From positions 1 to 64,000 of IMG/VR virus record IMGVR_UViG_3300021255_001460: a stretch of DNA of 64,000 bases. One strand, given 5' to 3'. The notes below the pieces were generated by a model, which saw only the letters and a list, made by a program, of their open reading frames with translations, searched no databases and had not been told where the DNA came from. Positions 10,288 to 63,491 of the stretch are shown one piece after another. Position 1 is the first letter of the stretch. Every line of letters begins with the position of its first letter. The position numbers were made by a program, and so were the translations under genes. The DNA comes from a virus (lineage: Duplodnaviria > Caudoviricetes).

Positions 10288-10855
10288 GACACACGAAGCA
10301 TTGAATCAGTTACTCAAGCAGTACAACCCGATGTTCAAGGCACTTTCCCGCAATTTTGCACGGAAATATTCCTTCTATGCGAACATCGAAGCACAGGATC
10401 TGTATCAGGAATGCGTTCTTGCGGCCTGTGAGTACCTTGAACAGTTCAAAAGTGAAAAAGAAGTGGAATATATTCCGCGAATCGTCTGTGTGAACGCAAT
10501 GTCGAAAGCGATAGCGAACGCTTTGCCGCTCACTTACTGGAAAGACGGTCATATGAAACGCATTATTCCCCTTGCAGAAGAGGCGAACATGCGTTTTTTA
10601 ATGTTTGCGGAATCTGAGTTCCACAGGTGTATGTCAATCGATGAATTTGAGGGCGCGGATACCAACCTGTTCGTTTACGACTTTGTGCAAAACCTGAATC
10701 CAAAAGAAAAGACCATTGTTGGACTGCGGCTCGACCACTGGACACATCAGGAGATCGCAGATGAATTCGGTGTGTCCAAATCCGCAATCACACAGGCTTT
10801 ACACAAGGTCGGCAGAAAATATCTTAACGAAAGGAAGGCGATCCTCGATGGCTAA
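10286..10855 (+). CDS. RNA polymerase sigma-70 family factor (regions 2 and 4)
   Basis: DLYQE region 2-like; THQEIADEFGVSKSAI HTH; TTG start after AAAGGGG. Confidence 0.8.
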   Translation: MTHEALNQLLKQYNPMFKALSRNFARKYSFYANIEAQDLYQECVLAACEYLEQFKSEKEVEYIPRIVCVNAMSKAIANALPLTYWKDGHMKRIIPLAEEANMRFLMFAESEFHRCMSIDEFEGADTNLFVYDFVQNLNPKEKTIVGLRLDHWTHQEIADEFGVSKSAITQALHKVGRKYLNERKAILDG

Positions 10856-11639
10856 CAACGTCACGGTTGTACAGTTTGGTCAAAGTCGCGGCTGTGTTGT
10901 CGCCCACCCTTTGTGGCAATATGACTATGGACAGAAACTGTAGATCAAAGGGCTGAATTAGCCGAGCGATTACGAGGTACATTTTTCCAACTCCGAAGAG
11001 TCTGGCACAGCACGTATTGTGGCTGGTCATGGCAACCTCGTATCTATCCCCGATGAATATTTGCAGTCGGGCAATGACATTTATTGTTGGGTTATGTTCC
11101 ACGAAGACGGGTATGAAAACGATGCCCGTGTGTGGCACATGGCAAAAATTCCGGTCAGTAAGCGCCCCCGCCCCGTTGGAACAAACATTCCCGAGGACGA
11201 ACTTGAGCGCTACTACGACCTGCTGGCACAGATGGAACAGCAGATCGCGGCAATGGAAGCAATGACTGCCTCCTACTCAAATGCAACCGCTGTCGCCAAT
11301 ACGCTGAGTCCTGATGCCGCCGCTACAGTGAACCTTTCCACCAATGCACAGGGCAACAAGCTGTTCACCTTTGGTATTCCGCAAGGAAAGATCCCGGCGA
11401 TTGCCATTGGTACAGTTGAGGCGGTTGCCTACAACGAAGAAGCCGAGGTAAACCGCACAGGAACTGACCTGAATCCGGTGTTTAACTTCAAGCTTCCGCG
11501 AGGCGTTGATGGCACAGGCGCTGTCAGCACAGTCGATGGCAATGCTCCTGACACGAATCACAACGCTGTCTCTGATAAGCTGGGAATGTTTATCAATGAG
11601 GACGGCTATATGTGCCAGCGCATTAAAATCGAATCTTAA
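10848..11639 (+). CDS. BppU-like baseplate upper/fibre protein, 263 aa, two in-frame TAG (10941, 10959)
   Basis: WQYDYGQKL*IKGLN*PSDYEVHFSN continues in frame into ORF 11019..11639; FTFGIPQG motif. Confidence 0.8.
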
Positions 11640-11672
11640 CATTACGACAAAGAAAGTGAGGTGAGAACAACA

Positions 11673-12317
11673 ATGACAATCCGCGACAACAACACCGTAT
11701 ATGTCAACTTCGGCAATGGTGTGGACGCAACAGCCGACGCGATCTGGCAGTACGACACTGGCCTGTATCTCAAGGTTGTGAATGTTCCGAATATGCCTTC
11801 CACTTTTCAGGCACAGTTCAGCAACCAGCTTGAGGGCGGCACAGCAAAGGCAGTGGTCGGCAGTGATTCTGTGGCTCAGATCCCTGATGAGTTTACCCAG
11901 TCCGGTGAACCGATCTATGTTTGGCTGGTTTTCAACATCGATGGCGTGACAGTCCGCACAGAACGTGTCATCAAGATCCCGGTGAAGAAGCGCCCCAAGG
12001 TTGTGGACGAGTAGCCTACACCCGTCCAGCAAAGCACCATTGACTAGCTGATCGGTGAGATGGAGAAGGCTGTTGAAGTAACGGGCGAAGCTATGGATAC
12101 CGCCACTGAGGCGTTGACCCAAGCGAAAGAAGTCATTGTTCGCATCGAATCTTTGGATGTTGCCACTCGCCTTACCAATGCTCGATTGATAGCGTTGACC
12201 GGGGATGCCACTGGAAGCACATCGTTCGACGGTTCGCAGGATGTTGCGATTGATGTGACCATTCCCCGTGCGACAGAGCGAGATATTCAAGAGGTGATAA
12301 ACAATGGCGCTGACTAA
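11673..12317 (+). CDS. BppU-like protein, 214 aa, two in-frame TAG (12012, 12045)
   Basis: WQYDTGLYL..., IPDE, IPVKKRPKVVDE*PTPVQQSTID*LIGEMEK joins two ORF-track pieces in frame; GAGGTGA RBS. Confidence 0.8.
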
Positions 12318-13389: not shown

Positions 13390-13402
13390 GGGACGGTGAT
13401 GG

Positions 13403-13597
13403 TTGATGGCAGTTCAGGACAATCAGAATTTAGTTGATGTTGCCCGACTGGCTGAGTTTTACGGGCATCTTCAACAAGTATTTGGCGCTTCGGTTTTGTA
13501 CGTTGGCGACGATGGTTATGTACACCAGACAATTGTGGTGAACACACCGGATGAAACCAGCGGGAGCGAAAGCGAAGCTGAAGTAGGAGGGAGTTAA
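13403..13597 (+). CDS. small hypothetical protein in structural block
   Basis: 64 aa; YVGDDGYVHQ resembles FINEDGYMCQ at the end of 10848..11639. Confidence 0.6.
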   Translation: MMAVQDNQNLVDVARLAEFYGHLQQVFGASVLYVGDDGYVHQTIVVNTPDETSGSESEAEVGGS

Positions 13598-13600
13598 CAA

Positions 13601-14347
13601 ATGGCTCAGACATATGCCGATTATGTAATGATGACCGACTAGACTGGCAACAGGATAGCACAGGCCATTGAAGATATGTCACCGCCACTGGATGAAGAAG
13701 TTTCTGAAACCAGTACGAATGCGGTGGAAAACAGGGCAATTTACCGCGAACTGAAGGCGCTGTCTGATCGTATTGGTTCAGTCGAATCCCCGGCACAAAC
13801 CGCGATCAAACTGCCTTTTTCTATTGCGACAACTGCATGGACTGGAAGTGGCCCATACACTTATACATTCACTAGTTCCTCAATTAGTACAAACTCGTTG
13901 GTGCTTGAACCAATGATCAGTAGCGGCTTTGATGCACTGCCGCCTTCATGGTCTTGGACACAGACAACGAACGGGGTAACATTTACGGTTTCCACAAAGC
14001 CAAGCGTTACTATTGCTGGCGATATTCCGGTGATTGATAGCGTGAATGGCACTGTTCCAGTTGAGCGTGGTGGCACTGGCGCGACCTCTGCTGTTGATGC
14101 GAGAGTCAACCTTGGCATCCCGGCACATGGTCTTGTGATTGTGAGCGGTGAGAAAGGCACAACCGCCCCGCTTCCAATTTCCAATACCAATATCACGGCG
14201 AATCACAAGTTGCTTAATTATTTTATCGAAAAGCCAGAAAATGAGGCGGCTAGTTGGACATGGACGACTTCAGCTAACACACTGACTATCGAAGGTACAT
14301 TCCTTGGCTCGACCAATATGACGTTCATACTGGGTGTTCCGTATTAA
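13601..14347 (+). CDS. putative tail fibre/baseplate protein, 248 aa, in-frame TAG at codon 14 (13640)
   Basis: AGGAGG RBS; MAQTYADYVMMTD*TGNRIAQAIEDM in frame with ORF 13676; GTVPVERGGTGATSAVDARVNLG fibre motif. Confidence 0.8.
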
Positions 14348-14364
14348 TGAAAGGGCGATGAATT

Positions 14365-14895
14365 ATGATTGAAAAGTTTTATACCACATAGGAGATTCAG
14401 CATCTTCCGAATGGCAACATACAGTGCCTTTACGATCACTATAGTGACATCCGTTATGCGCTGGCTAAGTATCATACAGTTTGTGCGGCGGCTGTGCTGA
14501 GTGAACTTGATTATCATGCGGCTTATCTGCTGGACGATACTGGTGTTTATCGTGATGAAACTGGTCGTATGTACCGTGAAATCTATGACCGCCGCGAAGA
14601 TCCGATGGCTGATCTGTATGTGACCATTGAGAACCAGATGCGGCCTGATGGAAGTAAGGGTCTGCTCTATGAATCCTTCGACAATCTTCCTCAAGGTCAG
14701 CAGAAGTACCACTACATTTGTGCGGCGGCTTCTGTGAGTGGTATTCCTTACCATGCCGCCTTCCTGATCCGCGAAGATGGAGTGTTTGTTGATCAGGCTA
14801 TTTGGGATCGTAGAGTTGATCCTGATATTCAGCCTGAACCAGAACCCGAAGAAGAAACTCCTGCCGAACAGGTTGATGAAGGCGGTGAGGCGTAA
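14365..14895 (+). CDS. hypothetical late protein, 176 aa, in-frame TAG at codon 9 (14389)
   Basis: MIEKFYTT*EIQHLPNG... in frame with ORF 14494; internal duplication (YHTVCAAAVLS / YHYICAAASVS). Confidence 0.75.
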
Positions 14896-15251: not shown

Positions 15252-15264
15252 GTAACTTGCTGAT

Positions 15265-18444: not shown

Positions 18445-19254
18445 ATGTGCATGTTGCCAGAAGGAATTAAGTTTTCGTTCTCATCCCTGTCTGCCTACGA
18501 TCATTGCCCCATGAGTTTCAAGCTGTCCAAAATCGATCACCTTCATGACGACGGCAACTTCTTTTCCCAGTACGGTTCTTTCGGACACAAGCTGTTCGAG
18601 CAGTATGAGAAGGGCGAGATCCCTTTGATTGCGCTGGGGCAAGAGTACGCTGATCGGTTTGAGGCTGAGGTTACCGCAGACCCGCCACCATTTCCCCGTG
18701 GCCTGTGGCAAAAATACTATGATGCTGGGCAGGAGTTCTTCGACAACTTCAATGGGTTCGACGAACACTACGAAATCCTTGAGATTGAGCAAAAGTTTGA
18801 AATCAATATCGGCGGCTATCCTTTTGTGGGCATTGCCGATTTAATAGTCCGCAACACACTGACTGGCGGTATCGAAGTCATCGATCACAAGTCCAAGTCA
18901 AAGAACAGCATGAAGAAAGAGATTGATGTGTACCGCAAACAGCTTTACACATATGCCATGTATGTTCATGAGAAGTACGGCGAGTGGCCTACCATGTTGC
19001 GGTTTAACATGTACAAGGAAAACTACTGGATTGACGAGCCGTTTGATATAAAGATGGTCAAGGAAACTGAAGACTGGGTAGTTGCCACGATAGACCGCAT
19101 CAAGGCCGACACAGAATGGTTCATCCACGAAGATGAATATTTCTGTTGTAATATCTGCGGCTTCTTTATGCAATGCCCAGCCCACAACATCATCATCGAA
19201 CGTCGCCACGAGCGCATGTTGGCGAAGGAACAGGCACAGAGGGGTGACGAGTAG
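18445..19254 (+). CDS. PD-(D/E)XK nuclease, Cas4/RecB-like
   Basis: SFSSLSAYDHCP, IEQKF, GIADLI, IDHKS, QLYTY, C-terminal CCxxCxxxxxC. Confidence 0.85.
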   Translation: MCMLPEGIKFSFSSLSAYDHCPMSFKLSKIDHLHDDGNFFSQYGSFGHKLFEQYEKGEIPLIALGQEYADRFEAEVTADPPPFPRGLWQKYYDAGQEFFDNFNGFDEHYEILEIEQKFEINIGGYPFVGIADLIVRNTLTGGIEVIDHKSKSKNSMKKEIDVYRKQLYTYAMYVHEKYGEWPTMLRFNMYKENYWIDEPFDIKMVKETEDWVVATIDRIKADTEWFIHEDEYFCCNICGFFMQCPAHNIIIERRHERMLAKEQAQRGDE

Positions 19255-19255
19255 T

Positions 19256-22200
19256 ATGAGCATGGTGGTCTATCATCTACACAGTGACAACTCAATGTTC
19301 GACTGTGCCACCGACTTTGCCGACTATATCGCGTTAGCCAAAGAGCAAGGCATGACCGCGATTGGCTCAAGCGAACACGGCATCCATCGTGACTGGGTTC
19401 GCAAGAAGCTACTGTGCGAAGAGGCTGGGCTGAAGTTTCTGAATGGTGTAGAGATCTACCTTACTGAGTCGCTGGAAGAAAAGGTGCGCGACAACTATCA
19501 CACCATATTGATCGCCAAGAACCATGATGGTCTGGTGGAACTCAATCGTGCGGTCTACAACTCCACAAAGCCCGACCACATGTTCTACAACAACCGCCTG
19601 ACTTTTGATGAGTTTCTGGCGCTGTCCGACAATATCATTAAGATCAGCGCCTGTATAGCTTCGCCACTCTGCCGTTTGCCGCATGATCATCCTTACTACA
19701 ACAGGTTGGTCGAGGCGTATGACTTCCTTGAGATTCAGCATCACAATATTCCGCTCCAGAAAGAATATAACTCTTGGCTGTGGCAACTGTCCTGCGAGTA
19801 TGGCAAGCCACTGATTGCTGGCACTGACACACATGCCGCCACCAAGTACAAGGCCGATTGCCGCCAGATTATGCTTGACTACAAGAAGCAAAGATATGAC
19901 GGCGAGGATGAGATGGATCTGACTTGGATTACTGAGCAGGATCTTGTGGCGGCTTATGCACGGCAAGGTGTTTTGCCACAAGCAGTTTATCTGGAAGCAA
20001 TCGCAAACACGAACAAGCTGGCTGACATGGTGGAAGATGAGCCGCTGGATAGGTCGATCAAGTATCCTATTCTGTACGGTTCTCGAGAAAAGGATGAAGA
20101 GGTTTTTGAAAACCGCATCCAAGAAATGTTTGCGGCAAAGTTGCGTGACGGTGTGATTCCGATGAGCCAGAAGGAAGCATATGAGAAAGCAATTGATGAA
20201 GAGTTGAGCGTATTCAAGAAGCTACATATGTGCGGCTTTATGCTTTCCCAGAGCGAACTGGTCAAATGGTGTCATGATAATGATATTCCGACAGGGCCAT
20301 CCCGTGGTTCTGTTGGCGGCTCGAGGATTGCATACATTACCGACATCATCGATATGAATCCCGAGACACTCAATACAATCTTCTCACGCTTCTGTAATGA
20401 ATCTCGTGTAGAGGTGGGTGGACATATCGCTCACCTAATAAAAATCTGTTGAACTGCTGGAACACCCTGAGAGCCTTGATACCAAAACAGAACGATGAAA
20501 TATGCGTAGATGGCAATGGTTTGAAAAGTTCAAGGATTGGGCAATCAGCAACCAAGCCCCGAACAGGGGAAGGCTCAACGACCATTCCGTAAGGAAGTAC
20601 ACCGTAAGCGCGGTGGAAGTGGCAGACGCTATATAAGCGAAGATATGGTCTGTTCTCTACAGAAAGTGTAGAGAGGTTAATCCTTGCACGGAGTAGCGAT
20701 CCGAGCAAAACATTCAAAGATATTGATACCGATATTATTACCGAAGACCGCCCGAAGATATTTGAATACATCGCCAGCCGTTTTGGTAGCGAGTTCACAG
20801 CACGGGTTGGTTCATATGGTACGTACTCAGATAAGAATATCATCATCGATGTTGGTGCGGCACTTGCAAACAACTGGTTGCGCGATCACGGTGAAGATGA
20901 CCGCGAACTCAGTCCTTATCCGCTGAAACGTGTTGACCGCATCAAGAAAGAATACGACTCAGATCCTGATGCGACTGCAAAGAAATATCCCGACATCTTC
21001 TACTACTACGAAGGCTTGAAGAATGTCCGCAAGCAACAAGGAGTCCACCCGGCTGGTATGGTGATTTCGCCAGTTAATCTGATCGACGAATACGGCGTGA
21101 TGTACAAAGATGGCGAGAACGTTCTGATTCACGACATGGATGCGGTTCATGATGCTGGTTTGGTCAAGTACGATTTTCTTGGACTGAAGACCATTGCCGT
21201 TATTCGTGACACATGTAAGCTTGCTGGCATCCCCTATCCACGCTATCACACAATGGACTGGGATGACCAGAAGGTATGGAAGGATATCTGCGATTTTCCA
21301 CAGGCTATCTTCCAGATGGAATCTCAGTTTGCGGCAGACGCGATCAAAACATTCCAAGCCAAGAGCATTGCTGACATGACTCTGGTGACCGCATGTATTC
21401 GGCCTTCTGGTGAATCATACCGTGATAAGGTCTTTGCACATATTGCAAATAAGAATCCGACCAAAGAAATGGATAACCTTTTTGCGAACAGTCTTGGTTA
21501 TCTGGTTTATCAGGAACAGATCATTGAAGCCCTCATCAAATTGTGCGGTTTCAGTGGAAGTGAAGCCGACACGGTTCGCCGCGATATTGCAAAGAAAAAA
21601 GAAGACAAAGTTGCCGCCGACGTTATTAAGATCCGTGAAGGATATTGCGCTCGTTCTGATAAGCCGCGAGAAGTTGCTGAGAAAGAGTGCGAGGAAATGC
21701 TTCAGGTTATCAATGATGCAAGTGGGTATAGCTTTGGATACAATCATGCCGCTGGATATAGTTTGATCGGCTACATCTGTGGCTGGCTTCGGTACTACTA
21801 CCCCACTGAATTTGTTGCGGCTTGGATGAACAACGCTGATGGTAAGGATGATCTCGCCACAGGTACTGCTTTGATGCGGCGCTACAATGTCCGAGTTATG
21901 CCGCCAAAGTTTGGTGTCAGTAAGAGCGGATTTGGTTGCGACCACGAAAAGCATGAGTGCGCTATTGGCCTGATCTCTATCGATGGCTTCGGCTCAACAC
22001 AGGGCGATGCGCTTTACAAGCTGGCACATGAGCATGAGTACAAATCATTTGTGGATCTGCTCGACGACATATTTGAAACCCGCGCACTGAATGCCACACA
22101 GGTTCAGCAGTTGATCGACATCGACTTCTTTTCAATGTTTGGCAATATTAACGAACTGACAAGCATCTACGAGTTCTACAACATGCTGGGTAACCGCAAA

Positions 22201-22701
22201 ACATTGAACAAGGAGAAGTACGCAAATACACCGATTCAGTGCATTATCCAGCAAAACGCCAACGGCTTAACTGCAAAGGGTGCTGAAGCCAAGGTATGGA
22301 CGATAACCAACCGCCACCAACTCCTGCTCGACATTGAAGAGTATGTTCGCCGCCAGAAGCTGGATGATCTGTCAACCATAAGCAAGGCAATAGTTTACGC
22401 AAGGATTATGAACGGCGAGTGTCCGGTCACAGGCCGCGAAGAAGACCGCCCCAAGCTTTATGTCAAATCGGTGTATCCGGTCAAGCGCAAGAAGGACAAC
22501 AAACAGTTTGGTGTGGCGATCACAACCAGATCCTTGGGCAGTGGTATTGAGTCGCGCTTCACGATCTTTATGAATGTGTACAACCAAGATCCGGTCGAGG
22601 CTGGCGACTTTGTTTTTGTGCGGCGCTATTCGGCTGACACAAAGGGCGACACAACTTACTTTACTTTGTGGGAGTACTATAAGTTATATCCCGGAGATTA
22701 A
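19256..22701 (+). CDS. dnaE: DNA polymerase III alpha subunit, split by a group I intron (exons 19256-20419 and 20719-22701, 1048 aa)
   Basis: PHP HLHSD, GPSRGSVGGS, FSRFCNESRVEVG|DIDTD, HPAG, KYDFLG, YQEQ, YSFGYNHA. Confidence 0.92.
20420..20718 (+). ncRNA. group I intron without ORF (299 nt) in dnaE
   Basis: P1 AGGTGGGT/GCTCACCT with U.G at 20419; P 20452-66, Q AATCAGCA 20543, R TCAACGACC 20575, S GAAGATATGGTCT 20639; P9 hairpin; removal restores VEVGDIDTD. Confidence 0.88.
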
Positions 22702-27885: not shown

Positions 27886-28491
27886 ATGCCCGTCACATCA
27901 TTCTCAGAACACATCAACGTAAATGATCTGGGTAAGGCTGGCACATTAACCTTGTAGTGCCTCGACCTGTCTATGCGTCGTCCGGGTTTCGCCGTAATCG
28001 AATACGACAAAGAAACCCGCGCCACAAGGGTTGTCGAATCCTCAGTGGTTGACAACAAATCCACCAAGGCTTTAAGAACGCACGGACAGATGTTGCTTGC
28101 TACTGCCGCCGAACTCAGGCGCTACTTCGAGAAATACAAAGACCGCAAACTGATCCTTGCCAAAGAGGATGCGGTTATGTCTTACCGCAACATTAACACC
28201 AGTGTAACCATCAGCAAAGTACACGGTGTTGCTGACATGATTGCCGCCGAGTATGGCTACTTCGATTTTCAAGGTATTGGCACAACCGCAATCAAAAAGA
28301 TGTTAACTGGTCGCGGCGATGCACAGAAGGACGAAGTGGAGCGCGGCACACGGGTCTTCATCGGACAGGAGTACGAATACCAATTCGATGATGAGTCCGA
28401 CGCTGTGGCTGTTGGGCTGGCGTGGCTTATTCAGGGCGGCTTGCTCAAGATGCCGAAGAACTGGAAGCTTCCAGAAAAAGAAAATGGTTGA
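27886..28491 (+). CDS. ruvC: RuvC-like Holliday junction resolvase, 201 aa, in-frame TAG at codon 24 (27955)
   Basis: TLTL*CLDLSMRRPGFAV; AKED; G.G.AQKDEV; DESDAVAV; GAGGTGA RBS before ATG 27886. Confidence 0.85.
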
Positions 28492-46079: not shown

Positions 46080-46511
46080 TTACATATCAATAGGGGCTTC
46101 GTGTAGCTTTTCCACAAAGTCCGTTGGTACATGATTATGTCGTCCGCACTTCACGTACTGTTCGTACATGCGCTCGAGCGAACTTCTCGTATCCAGTGAT
46201 ATTGGGTTCTTCTTAACACCATAGTGGACGTATGCCCAAGTCAATTTTTCGTTCTGTAGCGTAGCTGTCTGCTCGTCGGTCTGTGCCAGCCGCCCATCAA
46301 TCTCATCAAGCCGCTGAACAATCTTGTCAATCTTCTCATCAATCGATTCAATGCGTCGCTGTGCTTCAAGCTTGCGCTCTGCTCTTTTTAACACCCAGTC
46401 ATGAACGGCCTCAAACGTTTTAACAGCGCCAACGACTACGCCAATCTAGGCAATTACTCCTACGAAAGCACCCCACCCAGAAGTGAGCCACTTAACTGCT
46501 TCCTCTCCCAT
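46080..46511 (-). CDS. holin-like membrane protein, 143 aa, in-frame TAG at codon 22 (46446-48)
   Basis: MGEEAVKWLTSGWGAFVGVIA*IGVVVGAVK (TM helix) continues into ORF 46080..46394; LERMYEQYVKCG.N. Confidence 0.75.
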
Positions 46512-48531: not shown

Positions 48532-48544
48532 AGGTATCACCTCA

Positions 48545-48910
48545 TTAAAGCGCATTCTGTGGCGGCTTTGCGTGTCGGATCACGGGTATCCTGATTTGTC
48601 GCACAGTCTTCCACTGCTTCTCGCCCACTGGGTCAAAGATGTAGCACAAAACATCAATGGCGGTCTGAAACAAGCTGTCCGGGATTGCAAACTTCAAAGT
48701 GCCGTCAGCCGCAACAGTTACGTTCTCAACCTCAAATGTTCCGTACACACCAACATTCGCTTTGGTAATGTGGGCAACGTATCTTGTCTGCGGCGCTGGA
48801 ACTCCGGTCAGTTCCATCCTGACTCCGTTCTGCCACTGATAAACGGGAGCAGAGATCGCGAAGAAATCTACTCCCGTTTCAAGGTTTGTCATATCAAGTT
48901 TTAACGTCAT
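48545..48910 (-). CDS. stand-alone BppU N-terminal-like protein
   Basis: YQWQNGVRM, IPDSL, IRIPVIRHAKP. Confidence 0.6.
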   Translation of the reverse strand: MTLKLDMTNLETGVDFFAISAPVYQWQNGVRMELTGVPAPQTRYVAHITKANVGVYGTFEVENVTVAADGTLKFAIPDSLFQTAIDVLCYIFDPVGEKQWKTVRQIRIPVIRHAKPPQNAL

Positions 48911-53352: not shown

Positions 53353-54423
53353 TTACCGCATCAGGCCATCAAAGGTGATGGTAAGTTTGGACAAGCTGGC
53401 ATTTCCAGATCCGCTCTGCCCGGTAATGTTCTGCGTAGACACAATGAGTTCATTCATCTTGCCGACCAGACAAACATCGCCCTTAGTTGCTGGCATGTTC
53501 GCGTTGATTGTACAAGAGCCGCCATCATCAGCTACCGCCAGAATCTTTCGCCAAGCGCCCTGTACGTAAATGTAACTGCCTACATCTTCTGGGAAAAACT
53601 TCGCGGTTGTTTTCAGCAAAGCAGATCCTTGAGCGCAGATCACATAAATGTCGCGCCTGTACGGGAAGCAAGGCTCAAGATTGATGTACCCTTTGTCGTG
53701 GTATGCAAACGCATAGTTCGAGCCAACCGTGATCTTCTGGTACTTACTGTCGATGACCAGATCCTGACCAGAGGGCAACCCGACAATTTCGCACGTATCA
53801 TTGTTGGCGCTGTTTACGATCACAAGTTTACGGCCTGTCGGAATTGTTCCGCGCACAGTAATGGTCGCCGGGGTTGGCTCAGTGCCGGGATTCCACACAA
53901 GCTTTGTACCCATTGCAGTTGACACGGCTGGGATCATGGAGTGGCGAAGTATGCCGCAAAAAGATTCGATGCGGTACTCGTCTACCTCGTTGTCAGTGAG
54001 TTCCAACGTGTTCATTGTGCCGAATGGATAATACGCCGTCAGGTTGAGCGTGATTGTGCCGCTATACACTGTGAGCAGATTACGGTTCGTGTGTTCCTGA
54101 TAGCGGTCGCCAGTGGGCAGTTTGCTAGGCCGCACCATGTAGGTGATCCAAGGGCGCTCGTCAAAAACCAGTTCGCCCAGTACGCCAACGTGAACCCACT
54201 GGTAAATCTTGTCAAGCTGTGCATCGGTCAGGTCTTCAAAGTAGCAGTACAAGCTGAAGTCCTTTTGCTGAACGGTCGCCCCATTATAATAAGCGCCGGG
54301 AAAGTTTGTTACTGTTGCTGTGTTCACTTTGTACGGTGTGCCAGCATCCAGCAATGTCTTGGAATTGGGTATATAGGTCTATCCCATCTCGGTACAGTGG
54401 ATGCCGCGAAAAGTAAACCCCAT
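53353..54423 (-). CDS. distal tail protein (Dit-like), 356 aa, in-frame TAG at codon 15 (54379-81)
   Basis: MGFTFRGIHCTEMG*TYIP; GELVFDERP..Y; L.AYYPF; N.GT.P; follows the tape measure. Confidence 0.78.
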
Positions 54424-54444
54424 CACATCCGCTTTCAATGGTCA

Positions 54445-54779: not shown

Positions 54780-57700
54780 TCAGTTGAATCTGATGCCGCC
54801 AACAGACATTCCCTTCGACATATCTGCCACAATGGAATCCTTGACACGGGTGGCAACTTCTTCAAAGTCCGCATCATCATTCAGGGTGTCAACCTGTACG
54901 ATAATGTCGCCCACATTAATTGTGTTCGCCGTAGTGTTTGTGCCAGCCAGACCGCCAAAGGAAGGAAGCTGGAAGTGCATCATGCCGATGGTGTCGAGCA
55001 TATCGTTCAGCGCCTTCAAGCTGTTGGAGCGGTCGGCGTTGATCAGCAGTCGAGTCAGTTCCGCATCGTTGATACTTTCCGGGTTCGTCTTTGTGCCGTC
55101 GAGCCAAGCATAACCTGTGCGGTCAATCAAGCCGCCAGATGCATAAGCACGATGTGTATTACCCATTGCACGAGCCGCCACAGAAGCAACAGCCGACACA
55201 ATGTTTGTGCTTGTGCGTTCAACCGCTTGATTTACCATATTACTAAGCCACCCGCCACCGGAACTCCCGGACGAATTTGCGTTGTTGGAATTTGTAAACC
55301 GCGAGAATGCTGTACTAACTGTTTCTGGATTCGCTTGGTTAACTGTCCGGCTAATACTACTCAGGAAGCCACCGCTACCAGAACTACCAGACACAGGCGT
55401 TGTGTTAACACGATCCTGCGTCTTTCTCGGAATATTATAAGCACGAACATAGTCAGCAGAAACAACACCGCCACCGGGCAGATTCTTGTTACGCCAATTC
55501 ACACATTCGGTCTGACTTGCTGGGCCATAATACCAATACTTGTCATCCACAACATAGAATTGCCCATTGCTATCAGCAAGCATAAACAGGTCGCTACCCT
55601 GTCCAAGATGGTTAATTGTTCCAGAACGGATAGGCACTTGAGAAGTTGTCGGTTGTCCATTGCCTCCAGATCCTCCTCTGCCTCCACCGCCGCCAGATCC
55701 ACCAGTCGCAGATGCCGCCGCCGCACTAGCAGAAGCCGCCGCAGACTGTACCTGACTCAATGCCTGAAGCGCGGTATTGGTGAATTCCATCAACTGCTCT
55801 GTTGGGAACATATCGATGTATGCTCTTCTCAGATTCTCAATAGCATCCTGCCAGCCCTGTGTCATCAGTTTCTGTGCATAGCTATTGGCTTCAAGGAACT
55901 CCTGACTGTTCTCCTGTAGGAACTGTATGATGTAGTCGCCGCCCTTGGAGATGATCTCTTCAACCTCATCCCAGTTGGTCTTAATGATGCCAAACATTTT
56001 TTCAAGAGTTTCTGTCCAACTATCAGAATACTCTTTCTGCATGTTGGCGGTCGCCTTAATATACTCTTCGTCGTTCGCTTTAAGCCACTCGAGGATTTCG
56101 GTCATAGACATCTTCATGATATTGTTGACTTCTGCCTCAAAGTTCCTCGGATCTTTCAGCAGTTCCTCATAGTAGCTTTCGATGTAATCCGCATAGTCTT
56201 CAAGAGATTCAACCTTTTCTGTGATAGCTTCCTGCTGGGCTTCAACTTCCTGTTCAGCCGCATCCCAAGCGATTTCTTCCTGAAGTTCCGCAATCTCTTT
56301 GGCAATCTTCTGGGCATCTTTGGCGCGGGTCGGGTCAGCAGAAATACGAGCGTACTGTGCCTGTAAGTTGGACAGTCGCATCGCTTTGTCTTCCTGTTCA
56401 GCAAGCTGTTTGCGCTTGTTCAACTGGTTGGTCAGTTCGGAAGACTCTTTGTTCAGCGCCTTGATACGGGTGTTGGTGGTTTCAAGGATCTCGTCGCGCT
56501 CTTTCTCATAACGCTTCATGACCACTTCGAGGATCTTTTCTTCCACCTCACGCGATGCTTCAAACGCTTCTTTCTCGCGTGCTTTCCGGTCTTCGATTGC
56601 CGCATTGATGGTGTCGCGCAGGTCGCTTTCCATCTGCCAGATCTGTTTGCGGTATTCCTTGATAGCCTTTTCGTTGGCCTTGATCTGGGCGGTGTTCTGA
56701 AGAATGGCTTTGTTATAGTCGGCGTACTTCTTTTCAAGTTCGGTCAGGCGCGATGCAACGGAGTCATAAACTTCGCTGTTCGCATCTGTGCTGGCGAGTT
56801 CGGCTTTGGTTTCGTCAATCTTGGATCTCAGCTGATCCATATTGCTCTGGTAAACCTCAGACTGTTTTGCCAGCCACTTGTTTTCTTCGGTCAGAGTATT
56901 GATTACGCCAGTGAGATAACCTTCGTCAGCCCAAGATTTTTCAATAATGCCAAGTCGGTCGAGCAGATCTTTAATGGCATCGATCTCATTGTCGATACTA
57001 TCAAGAAAGAGTTTTTGTCTCCTACTTGCGGCTTCTTCGGCTTTCTGTGCTTCTTCAGCGGCAATTTCTTCGGCAGTCTTTTTAGTACCACCACCGCCTC
57101 CACCGCCACCTCTCTTGCCAGTGGTTGTCGCTGTTTCGTTATTATTTTTCTTACTACTTGTTGCCGATGCGGCTTTTGCGGCAAGACCTGTTAACCTACT
57201 AGTCGCGCTACCACCACCGCCGCCATTCACAGTCGCAGTCACCAGTCCATTAGCATCAACACCAATCCTCACGCCGTTCAAAGACATAGCCTTGTTCAAC
57301 AGATTGGCAAGCGCAACCTCTGCTTCGGTGGCTGTGGATTTCATTCTGATAAAACCGTTTGTAAACGATGACGGGTCAAATCTTGTGCCAGCCATGTTCA
57401 CCAAAGCCTGTGTTAAGACTTGGATGGATGCTCGGACTTGTTCGGTTTGCCCGTTCAGAATCTGAAGCGCAGTGTCAAGGTTATTTTTGACAGAATCGGC
57501 AGTCATACCAGTTACGGATGCCAGAAGCGAATATGCACTGGTCATTTCCTTGGTATCAGCCCCGGCATTCGCAGTGACATAATCCAAAGCTTCATATGCT
57601 CGTCTTAACTTGTCGGACTGGTCAATCATCTTTGCCATCGCTTCGGTAAATGTACCCTGATCTTCACCAGCCGCACTAAAAGCTGTCGCATACTGTTTGA

Positions 57701-60700
57701 TAATCTGTCCACTTGCACCAAGCTTATTTAAATCCATCTGAGCAATCTGCTTGGCGAATCTTGACAAATCCTCTTCGCCATCTTGTAGTGCCTTACGCAG
57801 ATCTTCGATAAAATCGTCGGTAATAACACCAGCACTCTTCAAAGATTTCTGCGTTGCTTCATCAAGTTCATCATAAGCCTTAATCAACCCACGGGCTTCT
57901 TCTGGCGACTTCATGGCTTCAATGATCTGCTGATAAGAATTAATCGCCACACGACCAGAGTTTACCCACTGCTGGTTGACGGTATTGAGCGCAGTACCCA
58001 TACGCTTGGTTGCGTCCTCAACACCCTGACTCATCTGGGTAGATACGGTACTGAAGTCGTAATTGTTAATCTTCTCCTGAAGCTGATCAAGCCACACAAC
58101 CAGCGGATGATCCTCGCCAAGATATTCACGCATCATATCAATCGACTCGAGCCATGCGTTCAGCTTTTCGATAAGCATCGTATAAATGCCATCGAGATTA
58201 CCTTCAACATCTTCGGTATCGATTTTAAATTCAGATGCAAGAAGTTTTTGCGCTTCCTGTAATTCCTTGGCAGAAGCAATACCATCGCCCTGTGCTTCTG
58301 AAATCAGTTTCCATGCATCGTACAATCTTCCAAGTTTTGCCGCCCCAGCTTCCGCATCCATTTGTAGCGGCACAAAACTTCCAATCTCATCGTTGCGGTG
58401 TTCAAAGAGTGCATATAATTCATCGACAAATTCGCCAGCATCATTTAGTGCCTCGGCCTCTGCATTATGAACATCAGCTATGGCGGTCGAGAAATCTGTC
58501 GCGCCCTGTACCCAAAGCACCTGAAGCTTACGGATAAAATCTTCGGTCAATCCGGTCGCGCTCAAGAAGGTTTTCTGCTGTTCTTTTGTGAAGTTATCAT
58601 AAACTTCAAGCACAGCCGCCACACCTTCACGAGAACCAAGACTTTCAGCAAATTCTCCGAAGAAGTCCACATTTGCCTTACCTGTGGTATTGTTCGCGGT
58701 TGCCGTCATCAGAGTGGAAAGGTTATTCAGACCGCCGTAATTCTGCGACTGAGTTTTAACCGCATCACCAAATGATATGCCAGCCAGTTCCTCGAATTGG
58801 TCGATCAGTACTTGTAGATCTCCAAGTGTTGCGCTATCTGGGGCAATCGAGTTAACTATTTCTGAGAATTCGGTTAGCTTTTCTTTTGCTCCATCAACCT
58901 TCAGACCAATCAAGCCAAAGACTTCATCAAGATGCTGTTCCACATATTCCTTATCCAGCCCAAGAGCATCGGCAATTGTTTTGTACCTTGCCTCGTCCGC
59001 TTCCTTATTTGCAAGATGATCTGGCGCGGTGAGTTCCTGATATGCCTTTGCCGCCTCAATGATCTTATTGTAGTCCTGACGGATTTTTTCAAATGCCGCC
59101 GTATACTCTACTTCCTTCTTCGGGTCGAGACTCAGCGTAAAGGCTTCGGCAAGAGACTTATTATCAGAACCCATCTTACCATACAGTTCGAGGCGGTACT
59201 CATTCATCTGCTTGATGAACTCGTCAAAGTTTACTTCGCCATGTTTGAAAGAAACTTCCAGCCCCTTGATCCAGTCATCCGTAATACCAGTCATGGACTT
59301 GAATGTCTTGAGTGTTTCTTCATCCATTGAGCCAAAAGCACGAATCAAAGCCTCCGCGCCAGAACGATCCTGTAATGCTTCGTTCATGATACGCCATGCA
59401 TCTTCGACATCTTCGGTATCAACCGCAAACTTATCAGTGAAGACATTCAGGTAGCTAAGAATCTCGCTTGTCTGATCCTGAAGTTCTGCGTTGTGTTTTT
59501 CTGCGATAGTGTAGAACTCTGCATTATCCAGCAGATCATTCATGTCGTCGATAAACTCAGCCACAAGACTGTTTTGATCGTAATCTTCAGAGGCAGTAAA
59601 TGCATCGTTCAGTGCTTCGACAGAATCAACAGTCTGATTATACTTCGCAACCAAGACATCCAGCGCTGGTTCAAGGTTGTTCTTGAGATTATCCGCATCA
59701 AGTCCGGTAACAGTAGATAGTGTCTTATAAGCTTCTTCAAGTTCGCTACCAGACAAAGCATCTTCCTTGATATTCTTGTATGCTTCCCATGCCTTAACCA
59801 GTGTGGCAAAATCAGCTTTCTGACCTTCCATCAATGGATACAATTCAATGATATTCTGGTTGCCGCCAATAGTATCACGATTATCAAAGATGTCGCTATA
59901 GCCTTTGAGGATGTCGCCACTCTTGGCACGAGCCGCCAGAGATTTTGCAGGACTTGCTTCCTCGTCCGGGTTCGCACCGTCAATCGCGCCTTCGCCATCC
60001 TGCACTGCTTTATCGACAATATCGGCAACCTTCGCCACAGCAATCCCGTAGATCTCGCTATAGTCCTGTGCGATCCGATTGTATTCATCGACATCTGCCT
60101 GAGTTGCTCCTTCGGCAGTGGCTTTCTTGTAAGCTTCGTCAACCATCTGCCAACGGTCACGCTGGAGATATCCTGCATCAGCATATGCGTTCTGGGCATT
60201 CTGGCTGATCTGCGTAACAGCATCAATTGCCTGTCGCGCCCTTGCTTTCAGGCCGCTGTCAAGTGTGTAATCAAATCCATCAATTACGCTCTGATACTGC
60301 TGTTTGTATCCTTCTGCCAACCACTGTGGAACGTTATCCAGATCAAGGAAGTTGCTGAATATATCACGCACTTGGCCTTTCAGATCTTCCTTCTGCCGCT
60401 CCAGATTAGCAAGGTCAGATACGGTCTGCATGTATTCTTCTTGAGCATAAGAGATATTGCTGTTATTCCAATAGTCCTGATTGTTGATGGCTTCATGATG
60501 TGCATTATCTTTAATCCACTGATCAAATGTGCCGCCATAATTGAAAGCCATATTGCCGCTTGTCCAAAGATCATACTCCTTAAAGATCTTGGAGAAAGCG
60601 TCAATATCAGTACCTCTCCTGAACCGTTCAAGAATATCCTCGCCGTATGCTTCCTGTAGTGCCGCCGCATAGTTATCGACGAACTGATTCATGTCGGTAT

Positions 60701-63491
60701 AATAACGTCCATGAGCAGTGGGAATTTGATCTTCCTGCCGCCTGATCTTACTGGCGGTTGCGTCGATGGTATTCAAGGTTTCATAAGCGGATCGTTTCGA
60801 TGCCTCTTTTTGTAGCCGCAGATTTTCAGCAAGTGATTCGTTCAGCTTGTCTACCATATCTTTCTGGTAGCTATACTTATCACCAATATTCTGCACACCG
60901 CTGGTAATACCGGGAATTAATCCTTCAAGAGCCGCATAAATTTCATTCAGCTTTTGCTGATCTTCTGCGGTCTTGTCTGTTTTCTTGGAAAGTTCTTCAT
61001 ACTCATCGCGAAGTGCGACAATAGCGTCATTTTTCTGTGCAAATTTTTCCTGTTCTTCTCTTGCGTCACTAATACTATTTTTAATGTCAGACAAAGACTG
61101 ATCAATATCTTCGCTACGGTCGGCAATTTCCGTTTCAGCACCGCCAACCATTCCGATCAAAGAAGAGAACAGCGCAATCATCGCACCAACACCAGCCGCA
61201 ATCATTGCATACGGATGGCCTGTGGCGAAGTTAATAATTGTGTCGAACAAGTTAAATGATTTGTGAGCATTCAGGAAAGTTACTAAAGATCCAATCAGAC
61301 CAATGAGAACCGGGAGCGCGATATTCAGTCCACCAACAGCGCTGGTCACATCGAGGAAATCGGTGGCAAGATCAAGCAATCCCTTAGTGATTTCTGGAAT
61401 GTGGAAGGCACTATATAGTTTTTCCAACGAAGCCTGAAGTCTACCTTGTGCCGCCGTAACTGATTCCTGCCAGACCGCGAAAGACTCAGTTGTGGTATTG
61501 GCACTATCCATTGCGATTTGATATAGTGTCAGTGCGCGAGAAACTCCGTCTACACTTTCAGCCGTCTTTGACAAATCTTCCATCAAGCCGATAAAGAAGT
61601 TCTGTCCACGAGTACCAGCCATAACTGTAGCCAGATAGGATCGGGTCTTGCTATCCATGTCTGCCCACTTTTCACCGATCTCGTTAAACACTTGGCCCAT
61701 CTTACGCCACTTGCCATTCGCATCCATCAGAGCAATACCCTGTGTGGCAAGTGCTTTTGTAACATCATTCAGTTTGGTTTCGTCATCACTATTGAAACCA
61801 GTCTGCTTGATCTGACGCATACGTGCCAGAATTGTGTTCAGCGCAGTACCGATAGATTCAGGGGCAAGACGAGTACGCTCGGACAATGTGGCAATCCAAG
61901 AAGACAATTGCTCAAACGATACACCAGCATCAGATGCAACACTCGCAACCTTCTGCATTGCGGTTGCCATTTCAGCACCACTCGTTGCGGCGGCGTTTCC
62001 CATTGCGATAAACGTATCTGTGACATGTTCGATATTAAGTCCAACTTGTCCTGTGGCATCATCAACCCAACCGGAATAACCGTTCAGAGTTGCAGTCAAA
62101 AGTTCTGAAGCTTCGTCAAAATTCATCTTGGTAACCTTTGCGAACTCGGTTACCCATTTAAGTCTGTCGTCAACTTCATCATCACTCAAGCCCTGACGAT
62201 AGAATGTAATTGCCGCTTCAGCAATCTCTTTGCTACTAACATTCATCTCACGAGCCATATCGCGATACTTAACAGCCAGTTCGTCTGCGGCTTGTTGGTT
62301 CATACCAGTAACCACACGAATTTCGTTCATCTGGTCATAGTATTCGTTAGCATATTGGGTTGCTTCCTGCCACATTTTTCGCAGAAGATTTTGGGCGGCA
62401 TGAACACCAATCTGCACCAATGATGTAAGAATCTTGTCAGCCAGCGTGGTGGTGACCGTTAGTTCAGAATTCGCGTCGGCAAACTTACCCCTGAGATCTG
62501 TGGCATAATCGCCTGACTTGCGAATATAGTCAGCTTCCAGTTGAGTATTATCAGCGCCAGCATCAACAAGCGCATTAATCTCGGCTTCTACACCCCTCAA
62601 CTGTTGTGCATAATGATAAGACTGTTCAATAGCCGCAGAACGTTTTTCTTCACTCGAAGATTCGGAATGTCCAACAGCATCTGCGGATGACATTTTCTTA
62701 AAGTATTCAAGACGCTGTTTGTATAGTTCGTTAAGCCGCCTCTGATTGGCGATCTCATTTTGTGTAGCAGTTGTGTCGGCTTGCTTAGCCCTGACCAAAG
62801 CGGCTTCCTGCTCATATGTTCTGTTCAGCTGTTCAAGTGCATTGCGCTGTGTTTCAGTCAGAGTGATGTTCCGGGATCTCTGCTCATACTCCGCACGTAA
62901 AGCATCTGCCTGTGCATGTAAGGCCACAATAGAATTTGCATCTTTTGATGGATCAAGTTTTGCGGCCTGTAATTCATATGAGTTGATTTGCTTCTGGAGA
63001 CTCAACAACTGCTGATATTGTTCGACTTGCCTTTTGGAGGCTTCAGTTGCGGCCTTTTGATCGGCAACCTGTGCTTTGATTTGCTCAGTACGAGTCTGTC
63101 CTTTTGAAACAAGTTCCGCAAGTTGAAGCTTTTCTTTGTCATTGAACTTGATGCTATCTACAATCAGATTAACAATAGCACCTAACTTCTCCGCTCTTTT
63201 TTGTAGCGCTTGCAGTTCGCTGGCATTTGTCTCAGCACTTAACCGCGCATTCTGAGCAGATATGTTATTAAGTTCGGACAAAACCTTCTTGAGTTCATTA
63301 TAAGCGATAGTGGCTTCCTTGGCAGACTTTGCCGCGCCAGACTGGTTACCCATATCAGCGATTGCACCATCAACGCCACTGATCTACCCTTTGATTTTGT
63401 CCATCTGTTCTGCGGTGAACGATGTTGCACTAACTAGCGCATCATGTAATGGTTTCCAGTTAATGACTAGTTCGCCAACATTAACAGCCAT
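54780..63491 (-). CDS. tape measure protein, 2903 aa, single in-frame TAG at codon 36 (63384-86)
   Basis: GGGGAGG RBS; MAVNVGELVIN...KIKG*ISGVDGAIADM joins the 2857-aa ORF; TP901-type core; C-terminal GGLIDRTG.AWLDGT. Confidence 0.9.

What the first reader, a model, noticed from the sequence alone, without database searches (positions are those of the whole stretch)
10848..63491. Ambers sit near the 5' end, about one per gene: a translational gate rather than wholesale recoding
Codon positions are 32 and 38 of 263, 114 and 125 of 214, 14 of 248, 9 of 176, 24 of 201, 22 of 143, 15 of 356 and 36 of 2903. Eight of ten fall in the first 38 codons, although the first 40 codons are only about 7% of the 4504 codons in these genes. 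The Gln-rich 2903-aa tape measure has exactly one TAG, and the 1252-aa tail protein has none. A synonymous Gln codon would be scattered along genes. Inference: a few 5' ambers act as a lock that cheaply aborts translation of selected virion, lysis and resolvase genes until a suppressor appears. This could silence a prophage or time the late phase. I regard this as the best candidate for an undescribed regulatory system here.
Basis: partly seen in the sequence, partly recalled or inferred. Interest (0 to 1): 0.95.

Follow-up and report, generated by a model that had tools for sequence, protein, structure and literature searches.

The report
Start-proximal amber-leucine codons in phage late genes
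A 90-kb gut or rumen phage writes one or two TAG "stop" codons near the start of many virion, lysis-region and resolvase genes and carries its own tRNA that reads TAG, most likely as leucine, so these genes can only be made once that tRNA is present; the general idea is published, but the start-of-gene placement and the leucine meaning were not in the papers I could search.

Summary
Observation confirmed. All ten TAG positions reproduce exactly, and 8 of 10 lie in the first 38 codons (binomial P = 2.6e-8).

They are not upstream stops mistaken for sense codons. Homology crosses the TAG, or covers start-less sequence just after it, in all eight genes. Shine-Dalgarno motifs precede six of the eight pre-TAG starts and only one post-TAG start, badly spaced. 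Read-through closes otherwise odd 78-194-nt gaps.

The bias holds genome-wide (14 of 16 in the first 55 codons). It also holds in about 90 related loci: 241 TAG sites in 17 late-gene families, and the first 20% of a gene is enriched even among conserved-Leu columns (OR 9.3, P = 7e-8).

Interpretation partly supported. A late-gene translational gate by stop-codon recoding is already published (Borges et al.; Yutin et al.). The suppressor is the phage's own tRNA(CUA), which ARAGORN misses, 14 kb beyond the window. TAG means Leu, not Gln (76 of 100 conserved sites). One sub-lineage reads it as Ser.

Dependence on the tRNA follows from the sequence. An evolved gate, rather than mere tolerance of cheap early stops, is inferred.

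Earlier agents of this scan reported the same TAG=Leu and 5'-TAG pattern on other genomes, at least some of them gut or rumen phages of similar size.

New variant of a known kind.

The parts
10848..11639 (+). Fibre-like gene of 263 aa, with sense TAGs at 10941-10943 (codon 32) and 10959-10961 (codon 38)
   Evidence: phrog_16164 matches residues 18-135 across both TAGs. The first standard-code start is at codon 58. Read-through turns a 163-nt gap into an 8-nt overlap.
11661..12317 (+). Paralogous fibre-like gene (214-218 aa), with mid-gene sense TAGs at 12012-12014 and 12045-12047
   Evidence: phrog_16164 matches residues 22-143 across both TAGs, and tail-fibre families match residues 141-208 downstream. 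It is 36% identical to the 263-aa gene across the TAG region.
13601..14347 (+). Tail-fibre-like gene of 248 aa, with a sense TAG at 13640-13642 (codon 14)
   Evidence: AGGAGG lies 10 nt before the ATG at 13601; there is none before the ATG at 13676. N-termini of homologues run co-linear from Met1, and invariant N17 lies between the TAG and M26. The gap shrinks from 78 to 3 nt.
14365..14895 (+). Gene of 176 aa of unknown function, with a sense TAG at 14389-14391 (codon 9)
   Evidence: Uninterrupted homologues P0147 and P0148 align from Met1 and have Val at the TAG column. The first standard start is at codon 44.
27886..28491 (+). RuvC-like resolvase of 201 aa, with a sense TAG at 27955-27957 (codon 24)
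   Evidence: Pfam RuvC matches residues 27-178. The conserved Asp of the D-L-S motif (residue 27) lies between the TAG and the first later ATG at codon 30. Homologues have I, V or L at the TAG column.
46080..46511 (-). Gene of 143 aa between an amidase-like gene and the holin, with a sense TAG at 46446-46448 (codon 22)
   Evidence: The homologue in G004 aligns from the N-terminus. The TAG lies in a hydrophobic stretch that looks like a membrane helix (my reading of the sequence) and faces Ile. The gap shrinks from 139 to 13-22 nt. Neighbours: holin phrog_6918, and weak amidase (phrog_1794, E 2.9e-5) and minor-tail-protein (phrog_329, E 5.7e-7) matches.
53353..54438 (-). Distal tail protein Dit (356-361 aa), with a sense TAG at 54379-54381 (codon 15 or 20)
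   Evidence: phrog_33 matches residues 5-256 across the TAG. G001 and G002 have Leu and G004 has Val at that column.
54780..63491 (-). Tape measure protein of 2903 aa, with a single sense TAG at 63384-63386 (codon 36)
   Evidence: GGAGG lies 8 nt before the ATG at 63491; there is none before 63353. The gap shrinks from 194 to 56 nt. N-termini of the relatives' tape measures align. G004 has TAGs at codons 32, 62 and 73, and G002 at 43, 71 and 96.
7728..8726 (+). Integrase that ends in TAG (8724-8726). Here TAG is a true terminator
   Evidence: Pfam Phage_integrase matches residues 146-311. The next gene (AAA_24, phrog_1366) starts at 8745 and matches from its second profile position.

Best explanation
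The window is part of a temperate siphovirus-like phage record (IMG/VR, 90,106 bp, about 78% complete). Relatives sit in Clostridia MAGs. The phage uses a sparse recoding of TAG that is confined to late genes.

Its own tRNA with anticodon CUA lies about 1.75 kb upstream of the terminase gene and on the same strand as the late genes (genome 78172-78269, minus strand, outside the window). It is 98 nt long, with discriminator A73, A15:U48 and a variable arm of about 28 nt. It most likely inserts leucine at TAG after charging by the host LeuRS, which does not read the anticodon.

Early and replication genes and the integrase carry no internal TAG. About a third of late genes carry one or two, nearly all in the first 55 codons. 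These are the terminase, portal, tape measure, Dit, tail tube, fibre-like genes, a gene in the lysis region and the RuvC resolvase.

While the tRNA is scarce, host RF1 ends translation after a few codons, at little cost. Once the tRNA accumulates, full-length proteins are made. The wiring resembles a coherent feed-forward 'leak dampener'.

Shown:
- the TAGs are sense codons;
- they are 5'-biased in this genome and across the clade;
- TAG equals Leu in the clade;
- the tRNA exists.

Inferred:
- the timing of the tRNA;
- competition with RF1;
- that selection for a gate or for low abort cost, and not chance, placed the TAGs.
For: Read-through is real.
- Homology crosses the TAG or the start-less stretch after it.
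- The RBS evidence agrees, and so does the gap control against TAA and TGA.
- An independent near-identical contig has the same TAGs.

The tRNA.
- Rfam RF00005 scores 44.8 bits, with anticodon loop UUCUAAA.
- The cloverleaf folds with z = -3.7.
- In eleven clade tRNAs the CTA is invariant, and all 20 pairs show compensatory changes.

TAG = Leu.
- 76 of 100 conserved TAG sites are Leu columns, against a background of 9.6%; Gln accounts for 1 of 100.
- This holds per lineage, including the nearest relatives: L006 15 of 17, L008 7 of 8.
- This genome's own TAGs mostly face hydrophobic residues: L, I or V in Dit, g143, the tail tube, g68158, RuvC and g176, and mixed L, F or I in the exonuclease.

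5' bias.
- Site deciles are 61, 43, 24, 21, 20, 18, 9, 10, 14, 21.
- Among conserved-Leu columns, the first 20% of a gene against the rest gives OR 9.3, P = 7e-8.
- TAG makes up 7.5-8% of Leu codons in the first 20% and 1.1-1.3% in the last 40%. The rare sense codon CTA changes only about 2-fold and TTA not at all.
- 5' sites are shared more widely.

Late-gene restriction.
- 15 TAGs per 889 Leu in late genes, against 1 per 772 in early genes, P = 0.0014.
- The same split holds in G001, G002 and G004.

No release factor or class-I aaRS gene is present in the record.
Against: - No expression or proteomic data exist.
- The timing of the tRNA is unknown. The promoter-like site upstream of it is no better than chance.
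- Only 13 of 35 late genes carry a TAG. The major capsid-region genes, the holin and the amidase carry none.
- The +4 context of sense TAGs does not differ from that of Leu codons (P = 0.14), so there is no sign of tuning.
- The portal TAG55 of this genome faces D, E or N, not Leu.
- Heavily recoded relatives such as G001 (27 TAGs in the tape measure, none in its first 200 codons) show that the bias is a tendency, not a rule.
- A gradient of this shape is also what plain purifying selection against wasteful truncation would give.
Confidence: 0.6

Rival explanations
1. There is no evolved gate. After the phage acquired a Leu suppressor tRNA, TAG became a rare and slightly costly synonym of Leu that drifts in and out. 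Suppression competes with RF1, so a TAG far into a gene wastes more translation and yields longer, possibly harmful fragments. Purifying selection therefore leaves TAGs mainly near starts. Dependence of late genes on the tRNA would then be a by-product.
For: - TAG density declines smoothly and monotonically along genes, with no sharp window.
- TAG density per codon is similar across late-gene families (0.03-0.09 sites per codon), with no obvious targeting of key genes.
- Many late genes have none.
- There is no context tuning.
- Relatives carry the suppressor but have no TAG in the portal or terminase gene (L031, L033, L036, L076). This fits the order 'tRNA first, TAGs accumulate later' described.
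Against: - Early genes are TAG-free even at their 5' ends. The tRNA is therefore not effective at all times, which already makes the TAG-bearing genes conditional.
- 5' TAG sites persist or recur in divergent lineages more than downstream sites do: 35% against 17% are shared by carriers no more than 70% identical.
- Every terminase gene with any TAG has at least one in its first ~80 codons, across many lineages and at different positions.
Confidence: 0.28
2. This is a codon ramp. TAG is read by a scarce tRNA and so is a slow codon. Like other rare codons, it is enriched in the first tens of codons to space ribosomes or to weaken mRNA structure near the start.
For: At conserved Leu columns the major codon CTG falls from 42-51% to 31% in the first decile, and rare CTA is about 2-fold enriched in the first 20%.
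Against: - The TAG gradient is 6-7-fold, against about 2-fold for CTA.
- The most AT-rich Leu codon, TTA, shows no 5' enrichment.
- The enrichment reaches to about codon 80, beyond the usual ramp.
- A ramp does not explain why early genes lack TAG altogether.
Confidence: 0.07
3. Annotation artefact. The TAGs are ordinary stops lying just upstream of the true starts, and the reader simply chose starts too far upstream.
For: By construction, any gene whose nearest upstream in-frame stop is TAG and that has an upstream in-frame ATG would look this way. Standard-code gene callers did truncate these genes in public data (P0004, P0124, P0146, P0149).
Against: - Homology to full-length relatives spans the TAGs.
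- Catalytic or invariant residues lie between the TAG and the next possible start (RuvC D27, g248 N17, the portal from residue 54, the terminase from residue 21).
- SD motifs sit before six of the eight upstream starts in the window and are essentially absent before the post-TAG starts.
- The TAA/TGA control shows no such gaps.
Confidence: 0.02

Closest known systems
Stop-codon-recoded gut phages with suppressor tRNAs (crAss-like, Lak, Agate, Garnet, Topaz; Borges et al., bioRxiv 10.1101/2021.08.26.457843; Yutin et al., PMC7886860; phAss-1, PMC10607447)
   Same: - In-frame TAG in structural and other late genes.
- Early genes and the integrase free of internal TAG.
- A phage-encoded tRNA(CUA).
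- TAG rare as a terminator.
- Standard-code relatives that already carry the suppressor.
- A proposed role as a late-gene gate and lysogeny switch.
   Different: - Those papers report only TAG to Gln and TGA to Trp. Here TAG aligns with Leu, and with Ser in one sub-lineage.
- Recoding here is sparse, at about 1-2 TAGs per affected gene, so standard-code calling mostly trims N-termini and does not fragment genes.
- The papers I read contain no analysis of position within genes. The 5' bias is the new element.
Synthetic 'leak dampener': supP (tRNA-Leu CUA) in a coherent feed-forward loop (Ho et al., Nucleic Acids Res 2021, PMC7969014)
   Same: - A Leu amber suppressor, chosen because LeuRS ignores the anticodon.
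- TAG placed at Leu codons or right after the initiator Met of the genes to be silenced.
- Target and tRNA induced together to remove leak.
   Different: It is an engineered E. coli device. For the phage, co-regulation of the tRNA and the late genes is inferred only from their position and strand.
NCBI genetic codes 16 and 22 (TAG = Leu in chlorophycean and Scenedesmus mitochondria)
   Same: The same codon-to-amino-acid assignment.
   Different: Those are organelle-wide reassignments (my own knowledge of the NCBI tables). Here the assignment is conditional, partial and virus-encoded, and TAG still terminates some early genes.
Classical amber polarity gradient in bacterial operons (lac, trp, his; my own knowledge, not checked here)
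   Same: A nonsense codon near the 5' end of a gene leaves the longest untranslated stretch and gives the strongest loss of downstream expression. That would make 5' TAGs the most effective place for a lock.
   Different: Those were laboratory mutants. Whether Rho-dependent polarity acts on this phage's late operon was not tested.

Membership tests
Suppressor-tRNA-driven stop-codon recoding of phage late genes | In-frame stop codons inside conserved genes, with homology continuing across them | tested here: met
   Seen in the portal, terminase, Dit, RuvC, the fibre-like genes, g176 and g248.
Suppressor-tRNA-driven stop-codon recoding of phage late genes | A phage-encoded tRNA whose anticodon matches the recoded stop | tested here: met
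   RF00005 scores 44.8 bits at L001:14172-14269 (-), with anticodon CUA. ARAGORN misses it.
Suppressor-tRNA-driven stop-codon recoding of phage late genes | Recoded codons confined to late or structural genes, with the integrase and early genes free of internal stops | tested here: met
   The integrase ends at a TAG.
Suppressor-tRNA-driven stop-codon recoding of phage late genes | The recoded codon is depleted as a terminator | tested here: met
   TAG ends 11 of 154 strand-consistent ORFs in the standard-code model. Most of those are short or doubtful; four clear cases lie in the window.
Genetic code 15 (TAG = Gln) | TAG aligns with conserved Gln in relatives | tested here: not met
   Gln accounts for 1 of 100 conserved TAG sites, Leu for 76 of 100.
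TAG = Leu assignment (as in NCBI tables 16 and 22) | TAG aligns with conserved Leu, and a Leu-type tRNA(CUA) is present | tested here: met
   Clade level. This genome: 7 of 8 informative sites face hydrophobic residues, mostly L, I or V. The tRNA has A73, A15:U48 and a long variable arm; calling these Leu identity features rests on my own knowledge. Actual charging was not tested.
Pyrrolysine decoding (TAG = Pyl) | A PylT-type tRNA (short variable loop, unusual D arm) plus pylS and pylBCD genes | tested here: not met
   The tRNA has a 28-nt variable arm and an ordinary cloverleaf. TAG columns are Leu, not Lys-like. I did not search for pyl genes. ARAGORN's 'tRNA-Pyl' label only reflects the CUA anticodon.
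Programmed single-site read-through (C-terminal extension type, for example Q-beta A1) | One leaky stop at the end of a complete ORF, giving a minor extended product | tested here: not met
   The TAGs lie at codons 3-129, before the conserved domains. The truncated products would be non-functional.

The most novel reading that the evidence does not exclude
The 5'-proximal TAG(Leu) codons and the suppressor tRNA at the entrance of the late module form an evolved coherent feed-forward lock, a natural 'leak dampener'. In the lysogen or early in infection, leaky late transcripts are aborted after a few codons, and Rho-type polarity possibly silences them further. Late in infection the tRNA opens all gated genes together. 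The same clade has built this lock at least twice, with tRNAs whose synthetases ignore the anticodon (Leu, and Ser in one sub-lineage). This would define a sparse, position-specific class of recoding that screens based on coding density do not detect.
Probability: 0.4. Interest if true: 0.8.

Novelty: new variant of a known kind. Interest (0 to 1): 0.65.

Why it matters
Stop-codon recoding in phages has been proposed, but not shown, to regulate late genes.

A phage with only one or two TAGs per gene, all near the start, offers a tractable test. Changing about sixteen codons to TTG, or removing one tRNA, should show whether the code change is a switch.

The 5' bias is the first positional signature I could find that argues for a cost or control logic and not a plain synonymous codon.

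The Leu meaning, and the Ser meaning in a sub-lineage, widen the known phage reassignments beyond Gln and Trp. They point to synthetases that ignore the anticodon as an easy route to recoding.

There is also a practical consequence. Standard-code gene callers silently cut the N-termini of these genes. The public RuvC entry, for example, lacks its catalytic Asp. tRNA finders can also miss the suppressor.

Tried and rejected
1. Upstream-stop artefact: rejected. See the observation check.
2. 'No suppressor in the genome'. ARAGORN found no tRNA in the window or in the whole 90 kb, and relaxed ARAGORN gave only noise. Rfam then found the tRNA.
3. TAG = Gln: rejected.
4. Pyrrolysine: rejected on tRNA shape and on the aligned residues.
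5. The +4 nucleotide context of sense TAGs against Leu codons showed no difference (P = 0.14).
6. The paralogue comparison of the two fibre-like genes, meant to reveal the residue at TAG, was uninformative: the TAGs face K, M, N and D at 36% identity.
7. The PDB alignment of the RuvC protein did not reach the N-terminus. Metagenomic homologues were used instead.
8. The promoter and terminator scan around the tRNA gave matches no better than shuffles.
9. Rfam on seven TAG-bearing related loci without an ARAGORN suppressor found no further tRNA(CUA) within 10 kb of the portal gene. Their suppressors, if any, lie elsewhere on those contigs.
10. No release-factor or class-I aaRS gene is present in the record.
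12. No terminal repeat was found. IMG/VR and CheckV rate the record linear and 78% complete, so 'the rest of the genome' is not fully known.
13. The nucleotide search of the phage collection gave only short matches to an intron.
Full report
**What the window is.** The 64-kb window is the first part of a single-contig IMG/VR virus record of 90,106 bp. The record is rated linear and about 78% complete. Genes run on the + strand up to about 45.2 kb and on the - strand from there on. Portal relatives lie in MAGs of Clostridia, Eubacteriales and Christensenellales-like bacteria. Two of them sit in contigs of 268 and 300 kb, and one IMG/VR relative is classed as a provirus. The record also encodes a tyrosine integrase. 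The phage is therefore most likely temperate.

**Checking the observation.** Eight of ten lie in the first 40 codons, which are 7.1% of the codons, giving P = 2.6e-8.

The serious alternative was that each 'amber' is merely the in-frame stop upstream of the true start. Four lines of evidence reject this.

1. *Control with the other stops.* Of the genes whose nearest upstream in-frame stop is TAG, 20 of 26 are preceded by a gap of at least 60 nt under the standard code. For TAA or TGA the figure is 25 of 104 (Fisher P = 1e-6). Reading through the TAG closes most of those gaps to between -8 and +64 nt. Reading through TAA or TGA would run into the upstream gene.

2. *Homology across the TAG.*
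   - phrog_16164 spans both TAGs in each of the two fibre-like paralogues, and phrog_33 spans the Dit TAG.
   - In RuvC, Pfam matches from residue 27. The Asp of the conserved D-L-S motif lies between TAG24 and the next ATG at codon 30, and homologues continue upstream.
   - g176 and g248 align with uninterrupted homologues from Met1.
   - g143 and the tape measure align at the N-terminus with the genes of related phages.

3. *Ribosome-binding sites.* Six of the eight pre-TAG starts in the window have Shine-Dalgarno motifs (none was found for g176 or Dit). Examples are AGGAGG for g248, GGAGG for the tape measure and GAGG for RuvC; outside the window, the tail tube has GGAGG and the portal AGGAG. 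Among the post-TAG starts only two weak GAGG matches at a poor 14-nt spacing turn up (g143, and g68158 outside the window).

4. *An independent assembly.* A near-identical contig carries the same TAGs.

**Beyond the window.**
- The terminase has a TAG at codon 7. Homology starts at residue 21, and the next start codon is at 59.
- The portal has a TAG at codon 55. It aligns with full-length homologues from residue 1, and the next start is at 109.
- The tail tube (codon 18), gene 68158 (codon 12 from its conserved start), an exonuclease (codon 3) and an intron-borne homing endonuclease (codon 43) follow the same pattern.

In all, 14 of 16 sense TAGs lie in the first 55 codons (P = 6e-12; 2e-8 without the tape measure). 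Late genes hold 15 TAGs per 889 Leu codons. Early genes hold only the one in RuvC per 772 (P = 0.0014).

Some TAGs are real terminators: the integrase stop, a tandem TAG-TAG at 2696-2701, and those at 7171 and 32300.

**The suppressor.** ARAGORN finds no tRNA in the record. Rfam's tRNA model finds one at genome 78172-78269 on the - strand (44.8 bits against a gathering score of 29).
- Its anticodon loop is UUCUAAA, so the anticodon is CUA.
- It has G1-U72, discriminator A73, A15 with U48, G18G19, and a variable arm of about 28 nt with a 7-bp stem. That arm is probably why ARAGORN misses it.
- It lies in a 413-nt gap about 1.75 kb upstream of the terminase gene, on the late-gene strand.
- Fourteen of the forty related loci scanned carry a tRNA(CUA) at a comparable place, often as the last tRNA of an array before the late module.
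- Across eleven of them the CTA is invariant, and all 20 helix pairs show compensatory changes.

**Relatives.** A portal alignment retrieved 80 IMG/VR loci and 13 loci in MAGs. Three related genomes were fetched whole. Portal and terminase genes range from no TAG to eight. Lineages with a single terminase TAG have it at codon 7, 30, 18, 6, 43, 23, 61, 16 or 6 of about 550. Every terminase with any TAG has one in its first ~80 codons.

I aligned 17 late-gene families and counted only TAGs at or after each family's consensus start. This gave 241 distinct TAG sites, with relative-position deciles 61, 43, 24, 21, 20, 18, 9, 10, 14, 21. The first two deciles hold 104 of 241 (P = 3e-16).

Normalising by opportunity gives the same picture. 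Among 189 conserved-Leu columns, the share that holds a TAG in at least one relative runs 0.91, 0.76, 0.38, 0.42, 0.14 and 0.29 along the gene (first 20% against the rest: OR 9.3, P = 7e-8).

In the three whole relatives, replication genes are essentially TAG-free (a few TAGs at codons 7-24 are doubtful) and late genes carry TAGs. The sparsely recoded relatives show the 5' bias. In G004, for example, the tape measure has TAGs at 32, 62, 73 and 1555 of 2741 codons.

**What TAG means.**
- At conserved columns TAG faces Leu in 76 of 100 sites, against a background of 9.6%. It faces Gln in 1.
- This holds lineage by lineage: L038 21 of 23, L006 15 of 17, L017 10 of 10.
- In this genome the TAGs of Dit, g143, the tail tube, g68158, RuvC and g176 face L, I or V, and the exonuclease TAG faces a mix of L, F and I. 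The portal TAG faces D, E or N in a variable stretch.
- In the nearest non-carrier relative the commonest codons at TAG sites are CTG, TTG and CTT.
- One sub-lineage (L063, L066, L070) instead has TAG at strongly conserved Ser columns: terminase 56 of 62, portal 69 of 72, capsid-region gene 39 of 45. The L063 suppressor is the only one with G73, a Ser-type discriminator.

LeuRS and SerRS do not use the anticodon for recognition. For LeuRS this is stated in PMC7969014. For SerRS it rests on my own knowledge. That property would make such suppressors easy to evolve.

**How it most likely works.** TAG-bearing genes cannot yield full-length protein unless the tRNA outcompetes RF1. Early genes avoid TAG even at their 5' ends. 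The tRNA therefore cannot be effective throughout the cycle, so the dependence is conditional in practice. This part follows from the sequence. The rest is inference:
- that the tRNA rises with late transcription;
- that the 5' position was selected, either because aborted translation is then cheap or because an early nonsense codon is most polar on downstream genes.

The main rival is that TAG is a tolerated, slightly costly Leu synonym that survives best near starts. Three points argue against pure tolerance, but none is decisive:
- 5' sites are shared by more, and more divergent, carriers (median 2 against 1, P = 0.011).
- The gradient is 6-7-fold for TAG, about 2-fold for the rare codon CTA, and absent for TTA.
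- Early genes have no TAGs at all.

Points against a finely tuned gate:
- Only 13 of 35 late genes carry a TAG. The holin, the amidase and the capsid-region genes carry none.
- There is no +4 context bias.

**Comparison with what is known.** Borges et al. describe recoded stops concentrated in structural and lysis genes, TAG-free integrases, prophages with recoding, suppressors that precede recoding, and the gate and lysogeny-switch hypothesis. Yutin et al. note that reassignment is restricted to late regions and that divergent suppressors may escape detection.

Those papers, and phAss-1, give only TAG=Gln and TGA=Trp. The texts I searched contain no analysis of position within genes. The nearest functional analogue is engineered: the supP (Leu, CUA) feed-forward leak dampener, with TAG placed right after the initiator Met.

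Earlier agents of this scan reached the same reading (TAG=Leu, 5' TAGs) on other genomes, at least some of them gut or rumen phages of similar size, and first-stage notes on this genome flagged the tRNA. Those are unchecked AI notes. I re-tested their claims here and do not count them as evidence.

**Verdict.**
- This is a new variant of a known kind: sparse, 5'-biased, TAG=Leu.
- Interest 0.65.

Noticed in passing
window 20386-20673 (+): A group I intron (Rfam RF00028, 60.2 bits) splits a DNA polymerase gene into the ORFs 19133-20452 and 20878-22701. G001, G002 and G004 encode one ORF of 1047-1074 aa.
   Followed up: partly
window 50972-51213 (-): The tail protein is split into ORFs of 735 and 548 aa in different frames. 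Residues 705 and 706 of the single G002 protein align on either side of an intervening stretch of about 240 nt with no Rfam match.
   Followed up: partly
window 7728-9770 (+): The integrase ends in TAG at 8724-8726 and is in frame, with no other stop, with the downstream AAA_24 / phrog_1366 gene. When the suppressor is active, a 680-aa fusion would be made. This could be chance (roughly 1 in 4).
   Followed up: no
window 2696-2701 (+): A small early gene ends in a tandem TAG-TAG, followed five codons later by TAA. It may be a back-up against read-through.
   Followed up: no
L063, L066, L070 (for example L063:7811-7898 for the tRNA): A sub-lineage of the same phage clade has TAG at strongly conserved Ser columns and a class-II tRNA(CUA) with G73. 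TAG is apparently read as Ser there. Its TAGs are also mostly 5'-proximal.
   Followed up: partly
L001:1280-2064 (-) = genome 65280-66064: A weak group-I-intron-like match (33 bits, below the gathering score) lies next to a GIY-YIG-type homing endonuclease ORF (phrog_314, E 1e-37). The ORF itself has a TAG at codon 43. Both lie in the tail-tube region.
   Followed up: partly
L031, L033, L036, L076: These relatives carry a tRNA(CUA) but have no TAG in the portal or terminase gene, so the suppressor is present before recoding of these genes.
   Followed up: no
window 10848-12317 and 47398-48555: Three fibre-like genes share an N-terminal phrog_16164 domain. Two of them lie on the + strand next to the integrase, far from the tail module.
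   Followed up: no
L050:5436-5505 (+): A skipping-rope RNA (RF02924, 51.8 bits) lies inside a relative's tRNA array.
   Followed up: no
P0004, P0124, P0135, P0146, P0149: Public protein entries for this phage group are cut at the N-terminus by standard-code gene calling. For example, RuvC entries start at 'MRRPGF' and lack the catalytic Asp.
   Followed up: yes
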